A DNA stretch of 64,000 bases from an uncultured bacterium (lineage in GTDB: Bacteria; Babelota; Babeliae; Babelales; Vermiphilaceae): the NCBI GenBank assembly GCA_963702025.1, contig OY969699.1, positions 32,001-96,000 of the forward strand. The letters are read 5' to 3'. Of the stretch, positions 39,001-45,000 are shown in pieces. The position numbers are program-made. Positions within the stretch are counted from its first letter, which is position 1. Every line of letters starts with the position of its first letter.

Positions 39001-42000
39001 AAAAGAAAAGTACATTTACTATCATTGTTCTGGCTACAAGGGCAACTGCAAACAAGGCACTATACGTCAAGAAGCTATCGAAGCCCGATTTGAATCGATG
39101 CTTGAAGACATGTATATCCCCGATGATATTCAAGAAAGTATTCTGCAGGGGCTACGTAGCAGTTTTAAGGATAAGATTGAGTATCGCGCCAGTCTTGTGG
39201 ATCAACTGCAAAAACAGATCAAGCTTTTACAAAGTAGGATAGATAAGACTTACATCGATAAGATTGACGGAAAAATTTCTGAAGAATACTGGGCCACTCA
39301 CACCCAAGATTGGGCGAATGAAAAAGATATCTTAATGATAAAGCTTGTGGCAGTAGAAAAAGCAGATTCTCATTATTTGGAAAACGCGAATATTATTTTA
39401 GAACTCGCCAAAAAGGCCTCCCAGCTGTTTAAACAGCAAAATGCGGAGCAAAAACGTAGATTGATCAATTTGTTAGTACAGAACTGCTCTTATAAAGATA
39501 AGAACCTTGATGTAGAGCTGAAACCAGTGTTTGGCGAGATCATGAAATCATCAAAAACTAGAAATTGGTGTGCCCGATAGGATTCGAACCTATGACCTAC
39601 GGATTAGAAATCCGTTGCTCTATCCAGCTGAGCTACGGGCACAAATAAACAATTTCAAAGTACCTCGACATTATTGCCCGTGGCTCTGAGCGGAGTTTAT
39701 CCTGAGCGAGCATGGCGAGTCGAAGGGGGCACAAAAAGATAAACTTAAGTATACGCTACTCAGAAAATATCTCAACTTACTGCATAGAAAATCGAAGACA
39801 AAAATTACCTCCGGATATGCGTACGCCCTTATTCCAAATGGCAAATACATACTGCAGATTTAGGATTTTTCGACATTTTTTAATAAAATATTATAATTAA
39901 TACTGGTTATACTTCAAAAAAAATCCCGCCTGGAGGAATTTCTATGAACAGTTCAAAAACAGTTCTTTTAAGTTTAATGTTATTACCATTATTTAGTTTG
40001 GATGCCGCAGTGAGTGTGAAATATCCAAAAGATCTTTTGGATCACACGGTATCTAATGGTAAAACCATCTATGTAAGGCAAGGCGATGAGTTTAAGTTTG
40101 AAATTGAAGTTGGGCCGCACGATTCCTTCTTTCAAATTTTTCCGCATTATGGTTCAGCATATGCTTCAAAATTTGGGCCGAAGTATAATAAACAAATGCT
40201 TGATCTGGTAAAAAGTGAATGGAAAGTGAGAACAGATAAACCGAGCAATGGCCATTTAACGGTAACTTTTGGCGCACTGGAAAATCTTGGCAGCACAAAA
40301 TTATCTCTTTTGCCCGATGATTCTGTCTGGGTTAACGTTGTGATATACAGTCGTTGGCCATAATAGCTTTGCATTTGCATATCATTTTATCATTCAATTT
40401 AGATAGTAGGCCGCGTTCTAAGAGATTGGCTTGTATCCATTGTCTACGGTAAAAAAATGCTTGGGCAAGAAGGCGGCTATCATTTCTGGCTTAATGAGCG
40501 CCGTTAAAAATGGCAACATTCAGATTATAATCATATATGTCACTCGCAGGATTGCCTATCAGAAAATTGAGATTTTCACTATCTGAATTATGTAAAACAT
40601 AGATAAATAGATTTTTATCTGCCACACTCAATGAAGAAATTTTTTGAGTAACAAACTCATAATTCCGCTGTTCTTCCAGCTTCGTTTTCTCTTGTTTTAT
40701 ACGTGCAGACAAGTGATCAAATTCACGTTGTTGCTCACCGGTAAAATACGCTGGGTGCCGTTGGGCCATTTTTTTATAGCTCTCTGATTCAATAGGATGC
40801 ACACCAACCCATTGGATATCAACCATTATATGGAGATCACAAGATACTGCTTTTACATCAAGTCCGTAGCCATTGCCACTAATAATAAATATCTCTTGTC
40901 CATTCTCATCGAAAATTCTGCCTAAAGATCTAAAGTGAAATGGTTGACGATCTTTAGTAATCTGAGCAAAGCATTCGGTGGCCCATTTTTTCCATAAAAA
41001 GCCATAATCATATACGAATCTAAAATCTTTATCTGATTTTTTAGCTTCTTGTTCAATACGTTTAAGCAATTCTTGTACTAATTTCTGCTCTTGCCCCGCT
41101 AACTGGCTATCATTATTACAATAGACCTTAGATAATAATTTATAGGCAAGAATAGCACCTGCCCCCAATCCCAAACCAATTGCCAGATTCTTTTTGGTCA
41201 AAAAAGGATAACCTAAAAATTGCCCTTTACAATCAAGAATGGCTAAAGACTCCATAGAATAGCCCATGGATGCAATCATAAGGGTACTGAAAATAACTGA
41301 TTTGATTGCTCTATTTTTCATAGATTCTCCATATAAATATTTTAGCATTCTTAAAACAGAACATATCTTTAATGTTACCAATAAATGTCCTCTAGCACAA
41401 CCACATTTTTATTGCCAACCTGTAAATAATTTCTTGACAAGGCTATAAAATAGGGTATTCTAAGAGTTAGAATAGTAGTATTAAGTAGTATATATGTATG
41501 GAGGTTTATTATGTTATATACGTCAAAATATGCACCTTTTATGGTGTTTTTACTCGTTTCAGGCCCTTTAATGGGTATGGAACTTCCCTATCGCTTAAAT
41601 AATGCAAATTATGAAGCAAAAAATGCGATTTTCCCCATTGTTGAAGCAGGGAGCCCTGCCGATCTAGATCGGGTACTGCAAAGATTCCAAAATATCTCAA
41701 TAAATGAAATTGCCAATGACCAAGAAATGGTACCTTTATTGGTAGCTGCAGTTAATGGCAATTTGCTCGTTGTAGAATACCTTATTAACGTGCATGGCGC
41801 TGATACGGGGATTACACATCATGGCCAAAATGCACTGCATAAGGCAGCGGCAAATGGGCATCTTGATGTGGTTCAATACCTTGTTGAACAATGCCACTTT
41901 GATGTTGAATTTCCTGATGAATCAGGCAATATTCCCCTTGATTTAGCTAAAAATAATGGCCATGATCAAGTTGCTAATTATCTTGCTATTTGGGCTCAAC

Positions 42001-45000
42001 CAGTAGCTCCGGCGGCACTTGTAGCAAAAGCTGCTCCAAAAACAGCACCAGCAGTTGCTCAAAGACCTGCGGTTAAACAACCTATTGCACCGGTGACAAA
42101 GGCACCTGCAGTTCCTCAAAGGCCCGCAGAACCAAAAAATAATGCGCCAGCAAATCAAAAAGAAGCGAACTGCCAAATTTGCTTTGATTCTAAACAATTG
42201 CAAAAACTGAACTGTGGCCACGAATTCTGCGGTGAATGTTTAAATGGTATGCTTGATACTGCAATCCGCGATAAATCAAGCAATGCGCTCAAATGCCCAA
42301 CACCAAACTGTGCAAAAGCATTTGAACCCAAAGATATAAATACCATTAATAAAGCCAAAGCGGTTCAAATACTCGATATTCAAGCCCGCGAAGCAATGGC
42401 AAAAGATAACAATATTAAACATTGCCCAACCCCCGATTGCCCGTATTCATTTGTTAATGATGCCAATAGAGCAGAAACAATTCGCTGCGAACAATGCAGA
42501 AAAGAATATTGTTCAAATTGTTTAACTCAACACGCGCAAAAAGTTTCTTGCGAGCAAGCGAAGAAAGATTCTGCCGCAGAAAGAGCAACTCAGCAATGGA
42601 AAGATGCCAATACAAAACAATGTCCTCAATGCAAAAAGAATATTCAAAAAGATGGCGGTTGTATGCATATGACCTGTGCACAATGTCATTATGAATTTTG
42701 TTGGAACTGCATGAAAAGATGGAATGCATATGAGCATCCAAATTCTTACAGCTGCTATCAAGCACCACAACAACCAGTTAACAATAATGCAATCGTAAAC
42801 GAGCCATATGTACCCGTTCACACTGAAAATGATTTTGAAGATGGCGATATTGCTTTTGGCGTACCAGCTCAAGCCTTTGCAGTGAATAATAGAAGAGATG
42901 ATCATAGGCAACCAAATATGAATCGCATGACACAACGTCAGATCCAAAACTTTGGTCCAGTTGATTATGCAATGCGACAAAGAACTTTTAACTTTGGCGC
43001 AGTGCCACGTGATTTTAATCGTTTTAGGGCCCTTTTACTCAGAAACCAAATTACACTTATTAGAAGTGAATTTACCCGCGAAGTAAATAACGCAAGAGCA
43101 GATTACTTGGTACGTGAGATCACCACATGGTCCATTGGGGTTAATTATCATCCAAGCCAAGAAAATAGAGTTCAAGAATTGGTATTCAATGCATATCTCG
43201 AAGCAATGAATAACTAAAATATTTGGAGATACATCCATGTCAGTATTTTTGATAAAAAAGGTTTTCCCTTTAGTGATACTCATATCCGTACCCGTAATAA
43301 GTATGGAAAAAGCGGAAAAAATTATTGCCATACAGAAGGCTGCAACTAATCCTCTGCATGAAGCTGCGGCCCAGGGTAATTTGGATAAAATTCGCTTTTT
43401 AATTGAAAAATCCGGCATGGATGTAAATGCTACCGATGCAGATAATAATATTGCTTTAGATTTCGCCAAAAAAAATCATCATAATGCAGTTGCCAATTAC
43501 CTTGTGGCAACAATGAATAAAGTTGAAAAAATAAAAAAAACTGTCGATGAGAATAAAGAATTCATGGAACTCGCAGATCTGTTTGCAAAAGAGCTAAAAG
43601 TACTCGATCCTTTACGCATGTGCAATATTTGTTTGGATGAAAAAAGTAGTCCTGAATTTAGCACGCTCGGTTGCAATCATGAATTTTGTACTACATGTTT
43701 GGATAAATTTATCAAGACTGCATGCAAGGATCACTCTACCGCTGCGTTGCGCTGCCCCATTGTTGCATGTAAAAAAACAATTGAAAATAAAGATTTTCCA
43801 AAAATTACCGACGCACAAAGTATTGCAAAACTTGAAGAGATACAACTGCAAGAATGGATTATAAAACAACCGGGAGCAAAACAGTGCCCAACTCCGGAAT
43901 GTAAATATGCATTTATTGCTGACGGCAGTAATCAAAAACAAAACATTCAGTGCCCACGATGCAAAGAACATTATTGCTCTCATTGTTTAATAAATCATCC
44001 AAAACAGATCTCATGCGAAGATGCTAATCCTGAAAGAGCATCTGATACTTGGAAAAATGCGCATACTAAACCCTGTCCACAATGCAAAGCGCCGATAGAA
44101 AAAAACGAGGGTTGTTTGCATATGACATGTCAGGCCTGTCATCATGAATTTTGCTGGGAATGTTTGGTACCCTATAAAGAGATGAAGCATGGCTTCTATA
44201 AATGTGAAAAAGTTGCATCTCAAAATTCAACAACTTCAGCAGAGCCCGATTCGCCCGAAGCACTACTAGCTCGCGGAAGGGCGTTTTTAGATGAAGCCGA
44301 CCGAAGACTCGCTCGCGAAGCGGCGACTCTTGATGAAGGCGACCAAATGCTCGCTCGCGCAGAAGCGGTTATTGCAAGATTGAGAAACCAAACATCTGCA
44401 AACAATGTAAACAGACCAGATCAGGACATCGATATTGATGATCATAATGCAAGCATAATAAGCATTATGAATAGAGCGGATCAATTAATTGCTAGACATG
44501 AACATCATATTTTTGCTGAGAATCCAACAAATACTATCCGGATCACCGCCCATCCCATCCGATATCTTAAATACGGGTTTATTTTTCGTTTTATGGATTT
44601 ATCTCAAGATCAACGTAATGCGTGGGCCACCGCAATTGATCAAAGAAATATTGCTCATTTGAATGCTTGGCAGCGCGCAGATATCTGGGAAGAAGAATTA
44701 CAAATATTAGAAAGTGCTCAAACCCAAATTACCGGCAACAAATAACTCTCTTGATCGCGTTATGGCACGCAATGAACATGAACTTTTTGCAGCAAATCCT
44801 AATGATCCTGTGCATTCATTTCCTTTTCGCCACCTTGTCAATGCCGATTTTGTTGGCCGCTTTACGCAGCTTTCTACAGCGCAACGTAATAATTGGAAGA
44901 TTGCAGTTGGCCAAAGAACAAATGGCATTTTAGACATTCTGGAACGCGCAGACATCTGGGAAGAGGAATTGTCTCGCATAGAAATACAGCAAATAAGGGA

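What a model noticed while it worked through the whole genome (the two positions that open the first line are those of the whole stretch)
41511..44745. Pair of secreted ankyrin-RBR (RING1-IBR-RING2) ubiquitin ligases
Two neighbouring genes (g00088, 568 aa; g00089, 502 aa) each encode a signal-peptide N-terminus ending in Met-Glu, ankyrin repeats and a complete RING1-IBR-RING2 module with the RBR catalytic cysteine motif (GGCMHMTC / EGCLHMTC). I read them as secreted RBR-type E3 ubiquitin ligases, taken from a eukaryote (closest: Ariadne-type ligases incl. Dictyostelium RbrA), that take ubiquitin from a host E2 onto their own cysteine and ubiquitinate amoebal targets picked by the ankyrin domain. 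New would be a bacterial RBR ligase: known bacterial E3 mimics are HECT-like, NEL, U-box/RING, SidE or F-box types.
Evidence so far: pfam.tsv: Ank_2, zf-C3HC4 (aa 221-264 / 129-166), IBR twice, IBR_1 and IBR_2 on RING2 (E 2e-16 / 7e-15); sequences read. Swiss-Prot best hits S. pombe Dbl4, Arabidopsis ARI5/ARI8, Dictyostelium RbrA, 26-32% id over 200-260 aa, E 1e-19 to 2e-29. relatives.tsv: IBR families in 18-33 of 260 Babelales and share 0.000 of 189,784 bacterial species genomes. The genes follow a serine-recombinase gene (g00085) and tRNA-Arg. The Babela paper mentions F-box, RING and UCH proteins but holds no 'IBR'.
(Added by a program. Inside this text positions count along the whole contig: contig position 32,001 is position 1 of the stretch shown here. 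"Call 12" and the like, gene names such as g00115 and contig names such as C1 are that model's own, and its searches are not shown. The text may have been shortened before it was handed on; [...] marks where a part breaks off. The agent that wrote the report below was given it as the finding of a first reader that could run no searches.)

Follow-up and report, generated by a model that had tools for sequence, protein, structure and literature searches.

The report
Bacterial secreted RBR ubiquitin ligases
A bacterium of a group that parasitises protists carries two genes for parkin-type (RBR) ubiquitin ligases with export signals; a 2026 review says this enzyme class has not been found in bacteria, yet relatives occur in about one in six genomes of the phylum.

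Summary
Confirmed. Window 41511-43217 and 43237-44745 (+) each encode signal peptide, ankyrin repeats and a complete RING1-IBR-RING2 module. All 24 zinc ligands and a Cys-His-Glu triad are present, the Cys aligning with ARIH1 C357. The genes lie in a 1.6-Mb bacterial contig, in a tRNA-Arg/atpA slot that holds RBR genes in 4 of 8 genomes of the genus. IBR domains occur in 46 of 261 phylum genomes. The catalytic Cys is kept in 44 of 44 complete modules. No E2 was found in 261 genomes, so host E1/E2/ubiquitin would be needed. A 2026 review states that bacterial RBRs are unidentified.

The Met-Glu after the signal peptide marks eukaryote-like exported proteins in this genome (27 of 72 against 3 of 68). 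Activity, delivery and substrates are untested. The scan had noted RBRs in protists and giant viruses, none in bacteria.

The parts
41511..43217 (+). RBR gene 1 (568 aa, P0001): signal peptide, ankyrin repeats, Pro/Ala-rich linker, RING1-IBR-RING2, C-terminal region of unknown family
41511..41582 (+). Predicted Sec signal peptide (aa 1-22) and Met23-Glu24 at the inferred mature N-terminus; GGAGG at 41500-41504 precedes the ATG
   Evidence: sequence; genome-wide pattern; cleavage site inferred
41736..41987 (+). Ankyrin repeats of gene 1 (aa 76-159)
   Evidence: Pfam Ank_2 E 2e-14
42171..42311 (+). RING1 of gene 1: C221 C224 C235 H237 C240 C243 C262 C267; I223; C-x4-C last zinc pair as in ARIH1
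42375..42551 (+). IBR of gene 1: C305 C310 C326 C329 C334 C337 H341 C347
42606..42755 (+). RING2 (catalytic) of gene 1: triad C384 (codon 42660-42662), H386, E395
   Evidence: alignment to ARIH1; C357 named catalytic in PMC5758712
43237..44745 (+). RBR gene 2 (502 aa, P0002): signal peptide, ankyrin repeats, RING1-IBR-RING2, long helix, C-terminal helical domain; 36% identical to gene 1 over 361 columns
43237..43308 (+). Predicted Sec signal peptide (aa 1-22) and Met23-Glu24 of gene 2
   Evidence: cleavage inferred
43342..43509 (+). Ankyrin repeats of gene 2 (aa 36-91)
   Evidence: Pfam; model matches ankyrin structures, Z 12.3, rmsd 1.7 over 62
43621..43770 (+). RING1 of gene 2: C129 C132 C146 H148 C151 C154 C173 C178
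43828..44016 (+). IBR of gene 2 (aa 198-260)
44059..44205 (+). RING2 of gene 2: triad C293 (codon 44113-44115), H295, E304
44470..44727 (+). C-terminal helical domain of gene 2 (aa 412-497), shared with several relatives, no Pfam family
44714..45028 (+). 104-codon ORF in another frame, overlapping the end of gene 2: a second copy of its C-terminal domain (37 of 87 identical); frameshifted tail or relic, unresolved
   Evidence: no laid contig piece covers the junction
41434..41461 (+). Promoter-like site (TTGACA-16-TATTCT) upstream of gene 1; consensus match only, site count equals chance (17 against 17.5)
45053..45068 (+). Terminator-like hairpin with T run after the pair and the 104-codon ORF; consensus match only
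39566..39642 (-). tRNA-Arg(TCT), one border of the conserved slot (context)
47651..49147 (-). atpA, other border of the slot (context)
38111..39580 (+). Large serine recombinase on the 3' side of the tRNA; context only, not linked to the RBR genes

Best explanation
The two genes encode exported, catalytically competent RBR E3 ubiquitin ligases of a Babelota (Dependentiae/TM6) parasite, members of an old family spread over the phylum. Shown: domain anatomy, complete zinc ligands and triad, invariance of the catalytic Cys, bacterial chromosomal context, no E1 or E2 found. Inferred steps: (1) Sec carries the protein across the inner membrane and signal peptidase I cuts before Met23, leaving a Met-Glu N-terminus. 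(2) It crosses the outer membrane, most likely by the type II secretion machinery or in vesicles, and reaches the protist cytosol. (3) RING1 binds a host E2~ubiquitin, Cys384 (or Cys293) takes ubiquitin as a thioester, and His/Glu help pass it to a substrate. (4) The variable flanks (ankyrin here; other ankyrins, extra RINGs or unknown helical domains in relatives) choose substrate or location. The module came from a eukaryote or a giant virus; the donor is not resolved.
For: Pfam and sequence. ARIH1 alignment E 3.9e-23 with the catalytic segment in register. AlphaFold model pLDDT 92.7, Foldseek top hit ARIH1 5udh E 2.7e-12, all listed hits RBRs. Catalytic Cys in 44 of 44 complete genome-derived modules and 105 of 105 signal-peptide-bearing database hits (the two sets overlap), while rows of the 46-module alignment are only 22-46% identical to P0001. 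Signal-peptide-like N-terminus in 55 of 59 genome-derived members (crude script, not SignalP). E2 in 0 of 261 genomes, positive control 3 hits in a giant-virus bin; ThiF/E1-like 0 and ubiquitin 0 in this genome. Signal peptidase I, two secretins and GspC found; TatC, T3SS FHIPEP, VirB4 and T6SS VipB not found. Met-[EQDN] class: 27 of 72 are Ank/WD40/LRR/UCH against 3 of 68 without Met. Cultured relatives are protist parasites with many signal-peptide ankyrin proteins and predicted ubiquitin-system effectors (PMC4378268, PMC6561590; passages).
Against: No activity, expression, localisation or substrate data. The triad His is kept in only 32 of 44 modules and Glu in 20 of 44, against 73 of 73 and 63 of 73 in Ariadne-like proteins, so part of the family may be impaired, although both window proteins are complete. 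A Sec route exposes 23 cysteines per protein to the periplasm; DsbB was not found, but other oxidation systems were not tested. How a Sec/T2SS substrate would cross a vacuole membrane is unknown. The host of this organism is unknown. The family is patchy: 46 of 261 genomes, and 4 of 8 in the genus. The C-terminal regions could be autoinhibitory; this was not resolved.
Confidence: 0.7

Rival explanations
1. The proteins are delivered and reactive but are not substrate-directed ligases for host proteins. They act as E2/ubiquitin sinks, build chains on themselves or on the vacuole, or tag the bacterium's own effectors (meta-effectors) or non-protein targets.
For: Catalytic Cys invariant but His and Glu variable; flanks very variable and mostly of no known family; 8 of 59 members lack the IBR. 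Meta-effector ligases exist (LubX, PMC13720258).
Against: Both window proteins keep the full triad and carry ankyrin repeats, a common substrate-binding fold. Shuffled interaction domains around a fixed catalytic core are what substrate-directed ligases would show (inference).
Confidence: 0.13
2. The proteins are exported by Sec but do not reach the host cytosol during growth (periplasm, surface or vacuole lumen). They act only at lysis, or have a role independent of ubiquitin.
For: No injection system found; only T2SS parts; a signal peptide alone shows only inner-membrane export.
Against: A non-zinc Cys kept in 44 of 44 divergent modules needs a partner, and no E1/E2 was found in the phylum. 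The Met-Glu class also holds a ubiquitin hydrolase and many ankyrin, LRR and WD40 proteins, while envelope machinery lacks the motif.
Confidence: 0.13
3. The genes are eukaryotic or giant-virus DNA wrongly assembled or binned into a bacterial genome.
For: RBRs are typical of eukaryotes and giant viruses. Three other prokaryote-labelled hits sat at contig starts and look chimeric (L088, L089, L090). GC3 of the two genes (0.28, 0.30) is about one SD under the genome mean 0.34. No laid contig piece spans the whole stretch.
Against: Single 1.596-Mb contig, 95% complete, 0.88% contaminated; intron-free ORFs with a GGAG(G) ribosome site and bacterial signal peptides; the same tRNA-Arg/atpA slot in 4 of 8 congeneric genomes; 46 of 261 genomes; one side of a branch at 100/98 for 18 selected members; an independent relative P0004, 84% identical in the RBR region.
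Confidence: 0.01
4. The ligases belong to a conjugation system inside the bacterium that uses a bacterial ubiquitin-like protein, as in bacterial E1-E2-Ubl defence operons (recalled).
For: Ubiquitin-like domains ring in 23 of 261 phylum genomes.
Against: None in this genome; the five such loci read are signal-peptide proteins with the domain internal or without a terminal Gly-Gly in four loci shown; no E2 in 261 genomes; no ThiF/E1 here; the RBRs carry export signals.
Confidence: 0.03

Closest known systems
Eukaryotic RBR E3 ligases: ARIH1/HHARI and ARIH2 (PDB 5udh, 7od1), RNF216 (8eb0), HOIL-1 (8eaz), parkin
   Same: RING1-IBR-RING2 order, zinc ligands, C-x4-C last zinc pair of RING1, Cys-His-Glu triad, predicted fold.
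   Different: Encoded by a bacterium with no E1/E2 found; Sec signal peptide and Met-Glu; no Ariadne, UBA-like, UBL or RING0 Pfam domain in the flanks; own branch in trees; activity untested.
Giant-virus RBR genes (Fadolivirus, Hokovirus, Klosneuvirus, 'ariadne-like' Megavirus; BFVD names)
   Same: Parasites of protists that carry RBR modules.
   Different: The viral proteins read have no signal peptide; the 6 viral modules in the tree fall with eukaryotic rows, not with the bacterial group; automatic names only.
Bacterial E3 effectors: HECT-like SopA/NleL, NEL (IpaH/SspH), SNL (SidC), U-box/RING (LubX, NleG, SnRING), F-box (AnkB)
   Same: Modular design of an interaction domain plus a ligase domain that would use host E1/E2/ubiquitin; NEL, SNL and HECT-like also form a Cys thioester (PMC13720258, section Ligases part 1).
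   Different: None has an RBR fold; the review says RBR and HECT counterparts are unidentified in bacteria. Those effectors mostly use type III/IV injection (recalled), not found here.
Predicted ubiquitin-system effectors of Babela massiliensis and Chromulinavorax destructans
   Same: Same phylum-level group; signal-peptide ankyrin proteins, RING, F-box, UCH; T2SS the only secretion system in Babela (passages).
   Different: Neither main text holds 'IBR' (0 occurrences); supplements not read.
ANKIB1 (animal ankyrin-RBR ligase; recalled, no call)
   Same: Ankyrin repeats N-terminal to an RBR module.
   Different: Not compared here; ankyrin is in only 7 of 59 bacterial members and on either side of the RBR, which suggests independent fusions (inference).

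Membership tests
RBR E3 ligase family | RING1, IBR and RING2 zinc domains in this order | tested here: met
   Pfam zf-C3HC4, IBR twice, IBR_1/IBR_2 in both proteins; definition in PMC5758712
RBR E3 ligase family | Complete zinc ligands in the three domains | tested here: met
   8+8+8 Cys/His in both proteins, assigned by alignment to ARIH1; the last two RING2 ligands (H409/C415, H318/C323) inferred from spacing
RBR E3 ligase family | Catalytic Cys in RING2 with His at +2 and Glu/Gln (triad) | tested here: met
   C384/H386/E395 and C293/H295/E304; triad described in PMC7458406 and PMC11354881
RBR E3 ligase family | RBR fold | tested here: met
   Predicted model only: pLDDT 92.7; Foldseek ARIH1 E 2.7e-12; VIA top rows HOIL-1L Z 10.7 (rmsd 4.7, 137 aligned), RNF216 Z 10.3, ARIH2 Z 10.1
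RBR E3 ligase family | RING1 binds E2~Ub in the open state | tested here: inconclusive
   Sequence proxies only: I223 column I/V in 38 of 44; C-x4-C loop in both window proteins and 30 of 44, C-x2-C in 12; the role of this loop is recalled; no complex predicted
RBR E3 ligase family | E3~Ub thioester and ubiquitin transfer | not testable with these tools
   Needs an in vitro assay
Ariadne subfamily | C-terminal Ariadne domain (PF19422) and N-terminal UBA-like domain | tested here: not met
   No such Pfam hit in either protein or in 69 flanking segments; a feature search of the P0002 tail gave only sub-0.9 leads to clusters with 25-42% Ariadne members
Ariadne subfamily | RBR module nests inside the Ariadne clade | tested here: inconclusive
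   Best trees place the bacterial group outside it; AU p 0.059 for a forced union with three protist Ariadne rows
Sec-exported proteins | n-h-c signal peptide with small residue at -1, and signal peptidase I in the genome | tested here: met
   Sequence, crude script, no SignalP; Peptidase_S26 E 8e-35; no lipobox
Host-delivered bacterial effectors | Translocation into the host cell | not testable with these tools
   T2SS parts found, no T3SS/T4SS/T6SS marker found
Cargo of a tRNA-integrated recombinase element | Genes lie between att repeats on the integrase side of the tRNA 3' end | tested here: not met
   RBR genes on the tRNA 5' side; no duplicate of the tRNA 3' end found; G186 has the recombinase without RBR, G187 and G190 have RBR without it

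The most novel reading that the evidence does not exclude
Babelota are the first bacteria known to use true eukaryote-type thioester-forming ligases as effectors: a large RBR family with shuffled substrate domains and IBR-less forms, and in one genus HECT-domain proteins. These are delivered without an injection needle by a Sec/T2SS route in which a Met-Glu N-terminus, exposed by signal peptidase, serves as a second sorting or host-stability signal that mimics a native eukaryotic N-terminus (NatB-type acetylation site; resemblance to the processed Plasmodium PEXEL end; both recalled).
Probability: 0.35. Interest if true: 0.9.

Novelty: new variant of a known kind. Interest (0 to 1): 0.77.

Why it matters
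A review of October 2026 lists RBR (and HECT) ligases as classes whose bacterial counterparts 'have not yet been identified' (PMC13720258). This family fills that gap on sequence evidence, with dozens of members and complete catalytic sites, and one in vitro ubiquitination experiment can test it. Compact RBRs without an Ariadne domain would be natural tools for studying RBR catalysis, chain specificity and the need for the IBR (8 of 59 members lack it). The family also gives a handle on how Babelota, a widespread and barely studied phylum of protist parasites with no injection system detected, manipulate their hosts. The Met-Glu signature offers a simple rule to list candidate effectors.

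Tried and rejected
Mobile-element link: rejected. Among 40 fetched RBR loci of relatives, 1 had a recombinase homologue and 6 had a tRNA.

Contamination: rejected for this locus. Judged likely for L089 and L090 (short matches at contig starts; L102 shows an Ariadne-like fragment with an insertion, L103 has stops) and for L088 (contig start, 1 of 93 genomes of its order).

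Ariadne as nearest kin: not shown, not excluded. The careful mixture-model tree did not finish, so one search is a quick tree. The eukaryote sample is biased to Ariadne, and parkin, HOIP, RNF14, RNF19, RNF144 and RNF216 types were not deliberately included.

Reads: 5 DNA runs listed, no RNA holder listed. Contig pieces of 4 runs match parts of both genes at 99% or more but none covers 44630-44870, so the frame question is open; these runs may not be independent of the assembly.

C-terminal regions: no Pfam family; no usable Atlas hit for P0001 aa 455-568, only sub-0.9 leads for P0002 aa 400-502; the fold search of full-length P0002 was filled by ankyrin hits and did not test the tail.

A regular expression for the triad failed (1 of 150) and was replaced by alignment counting. 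The longer-length search gave one plant protein. A second viral scan returned only three copies of its query. The HECT-like tail found no solved relative by phmmer. No Rfam family other than tRNA in 38000-48000. No complex prediction was run: only a stand-in E2 was at hand and RING-E2 pairs pass by likeness.

Literature: 10 searches; 'RBR' with 'Dependentiae' gave 0 papers; no listing showed a bacterial RBR. The library lacks most subscription papers, and no supplements were read, so a domain table could list IBR in these bacteria. NCBI already names some members 'IBR domain-containing protein' of Ca. Dependentiae or Babeliales.

Full report
Observation. The two ORFs are at 41511-43217 and 43237-44745 on the + strand, 568 and 502 aa, 19 bp apart. 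Pfam finds ankyrin repeats, a C3HC4 RING and two IBR-type domains in each. All eight ligands of RING1, IBR and RING2 can be assigned in both (the last two of RING2 by spacing). The first module aligns with human ARIH1 at E 3.9e-23 with the catalytic segment in register. This puts C384 on ARIH1 C357, which PMC5758712 names as catalytic (passages), with H386 and E395 completing the Cys-His-Glu triad described in PMC7458406 (passages). The second protein has C293, H295, E304. An AlphaFold model of the first module has pLDDT 92.7, and every listed Foldseek hit is an RBR ligase, best ARIH1 5udh at E 2.7e-12. They are the only two RBR genes in the genome.

The genes are bacterial. The window lies in one 1,596,033-base contig, 95% complete, 0.88% contaminated, beside the ATP synthase operon. 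Its phylum holds 261 genomes in one order. Relatives are found in records titled Ca. Babeliales or Ca. Dependentiae, and this genome shares a block of housekeeping genes with the Babeliales-titled locus L078, one at 69% identity over 347 aa. I take it to be Babelota; I did not build a marker tree. In 4 of 8 genomes of the genus (G000, G187, G189, G190) RBR genes lie next to atpA, and in three of these between tRNA-Arg(TCT) and atpA; G189's contig ends before a tRNA. G185 and G186 have the slot without RBR; G184 and G188 are cut by contig ends. The recombinase is on the far, 3' side of the tRNA, is present in G186 without RBR and absent from G187 and G190 with RBR, and no att duplicate was found. 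So the pair is not recombinase cargo.

A family. The IBR model rings in 46 of 261 phylum genomes and 0 of 14 controls; my own profile finds 47 of 261, with up to 10 matches in one genome. From the loci that I fetched, which cover only part of these matches, I read 59 distinct ORFs; 44 have a complete module, 8 lack the IBR, and the other 7 are partial or carry insertions. The catalytic Cys is kept in 44 of 44, and in 105 of 105 signal-peptide-bearing hits of the profile search; these sets overlap. The His is kept in 32 of 44 and the Glu in 20 of 44, against 73 and 63 of 73 Ariadne-like proteins. Of the best 150 profile hits, 111 have a signal-peptide-like start; of 20 looked up, 10 were named eukaryotic. 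Flanks are highly variable: of 69 segments, 7 have ankyrin, 2 extra RINGs, none an Ariadne domain, and most no family. Syntenic copies within the genus differ in their flanks. Ankyrin-RBR is thus one arrangement among many.

Outside the phylum. One strict-motif scan of 185,579 genomes gave 17 loci. Thirteen were titled Babeliales, Dependentiae or uninformatively and resemble the family; I did not classify them one by one. Three look chimeric (L088-L090). One, L085 (titled Myxococcota), is a signal-peptide, weak-ankyrin, RBR gene between atpD and priA. Its family has IBR matches in 5 of 21 genomes, 4 over the cut-off; a 301-genome sample of its phylum added only two sub-cut-off hits. These keep the catalytic Cys in 9 of 9, but 7 of 9 lack the Cys pair of the second RING2 zinc site. 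Bacterial RBRs are therefore concentrated in Babelota but not unique to it. Lineages with a different motif would have been missed.

Origin. In a 109-row quick tree, 41 of 44 Babelota modules form one group (SH-aLRT 93, unstarred). With 18 members chosen by me, leaving out long branches, the group has 100/98 support against 24 eukaryotic and viral rows (bootstrap not fully settled). Its sister is unresolved. A forced union with three protist Ariadne rows is 23 log-likelihood units worse but not rejected (p-AU 0.059). In a 67-row quick mixture tree, 7 of 9 proteins of the second lineage fall among the Babelota rows without starred support, a hint of transfer between bacteria. Giant viruses carry RBRs, but the 6 sampled fall with eukaryotic rows. 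The eukaryote sample is biased to Ariadne. Acquisition from a eukaryote or virus is inference from the distribution.

Dependence on the host. The E2 family was found in 0 of 261 genomes, with a working positive control in a giant-virus bin. No ThiF/E1-like protein and no ubiquitin domain was found in this genome. A strictly kept Cys that binds no zinc, in an organism with no conjugation cascade found, is best explained by use of the host's.

Export. Both proteins have a hydrophobic stretch and Met-Glu at 23-24. Among 745 crude signal-peptide genes without other membrane spans, 413 have Met within 14 residues of the h-window (23% expected); -1 is A/G/S in 65% and +1 after Met is Glu in 38%. A Shine-Dalgarno word precedes the first Met in 128 of 228 genes and the inner Met in 1 of 228, so the signal peptide is translated. 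In 20 regions (400 kb of 1.6 Mb), 27 of 72 Met-[EQDN] proteins are ankyrin, LRR, WD40 or ubiquitin hydrolase, against 3 of 68 without Met; secretins, GspC, BamA and a periplasmic binding protein all lack it (Fisher p 9e-7, overstated because paralogues are not independent). In the RBR family the motif is in 18 of 59, so it is not universal. Signal peptidase I and two secretins with GspC are present; TatC, FHIPEP, VirB4, VipB and DsbB were not found. This agrees with T2SS being the only system in Babela and with 44% signal-peptide proteins in Chromulinavorax (passages). That Met-Glu/Asp/Asn/Gln matches NatB substrates and resembles the processed PEXEL end is recalled; one search found nothing on it for bacteria (listing only).

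Mechanism. Most likely (0.7): Sec export, cleavage before Met23, T2SS or vesicle release, entry into the protist cytosol, E2~Ub binding by RING1, thioester on C384 or C293, transfer to targets chosen by the flanks. Only the anatomy, conservation, context and missing E1/E2 are shown. Rivals: reactive but not substrate-directed (0.13), not delivered (0.13), internal conjugation system (0.03), contamination (0.01).

Novelty. PMC13720258 (passages and the first part of section 'Ligases') states that bacterial counterparts of HECT, RBR, RCR and RZ ligases 'have not yet been identified'. PMC13728172, PMC11354881 and PMC12644861 (passages) mention no bacterial RBR in what I saw. Ten searches showed none (listings only), and the scan's own notes hold RBRs of protists and giant viruses only among the 8 of 17 shown. 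Against: NCBI has automatic 'IBR domain-containing protein' names on some members, RBRs are known from giant viruses of protists, and supplements and subscription papers were not seen. The enzyme type is known; its presence as an exported bacterial family appears undescribed. Verdict: new variant of a known kind, interest 0.77.

Noticed in passing
L167:4171-8853 (-) (G157) and L168:441-3236 (-) (G155): Two genomes of one genus encode signal-peptide proteins (1561 and 932 aa) ending in a HECT-like domain with an xHTC motif; Pfam HECT E 2.4e-8 (over cut-off) and 4e-4 (under). The third phylum hit (G199) falls on the strand opposite a DEAD-box-like gene and looks spurious. Bacterial HECT is also listed as unidentified in PMC13720258.
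   Followed up: partly
whole genome G000: Met (mostly Met-Glu) at the inferred +1 position after signal peptides marks ankyrin, LRR, WD40 and UCH proteins and not envelope machinery; 60 of 69 crude ankyrin genes have it.
   Followed up: partly
L030, L031, L033, L056, L071, L072, L073: Eight family members have RING1 joined to RING2 without an IBR and keep the catalytic Cys; earlier scan notes describe IBR-less modules in protists (e1-7160369).
   Followed up: partly
L085, L120-L127, L129 (family of G261): A second small-genome bacterial family (one record titled Myxococcota) has RBR genes, some with ankyrin or DUF2608; most lack the second RING2 zinc site.
   Followed up: partly
window 44714-45028 (+): Out-of-frame second copy of the C-terminal domain of gene 2, before the terminator-like hairpin; frameshift, assembly error or relic.
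   Followed up: partly
L159-L162 and others: Ubiquitin-like domains in 23 of 261 phylum genomes, in the loci read inside signal-peptide proteins, best E 7e-28.
   Followed up: partly
window 23805-24638 (-): Signal-peptide protein with weak ankyrin and a canonical RING (zf-RING_2 E 2.7e-11); three more RING-like ORFs with hydrophobic starts elsewhere in the genome.
   Followed up: partly
L151:13412-15058 (-) (G000): Met-class signal-peptide protein with a UCH deubiquitinase domain, E 2.8e-31.
   Followed up: no
window 45216-46232 (+): 338-aa signal-peptide ankyrin protein directly downstream; a short segment near its N-terminus (LLPVELQTQILHY) looks F-box-like by eye but had no Pfam F-box hit.
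   Followed up: no
window 38111-39580 (+): The recombinase ORF runs into the 3' end of tRNA-Arg; three further full-length homologues (one split over two frames) lie elsewhere in the genome.
   Followed up: partly
G000: DsbB, TatC and ThiF were not found in a 95% complete genome; a non-oxidising periplasm would suit export of Cys-rich zinc proteins (other oxidation systems untested).
   Followed up: partly
L034 (G242), L036-L039 (G194): Local clusters of diverged RBR paralogues, four in 20 kb in G242, two with extra RING domains; up to 10 matches per genome.
   Followed up: partly
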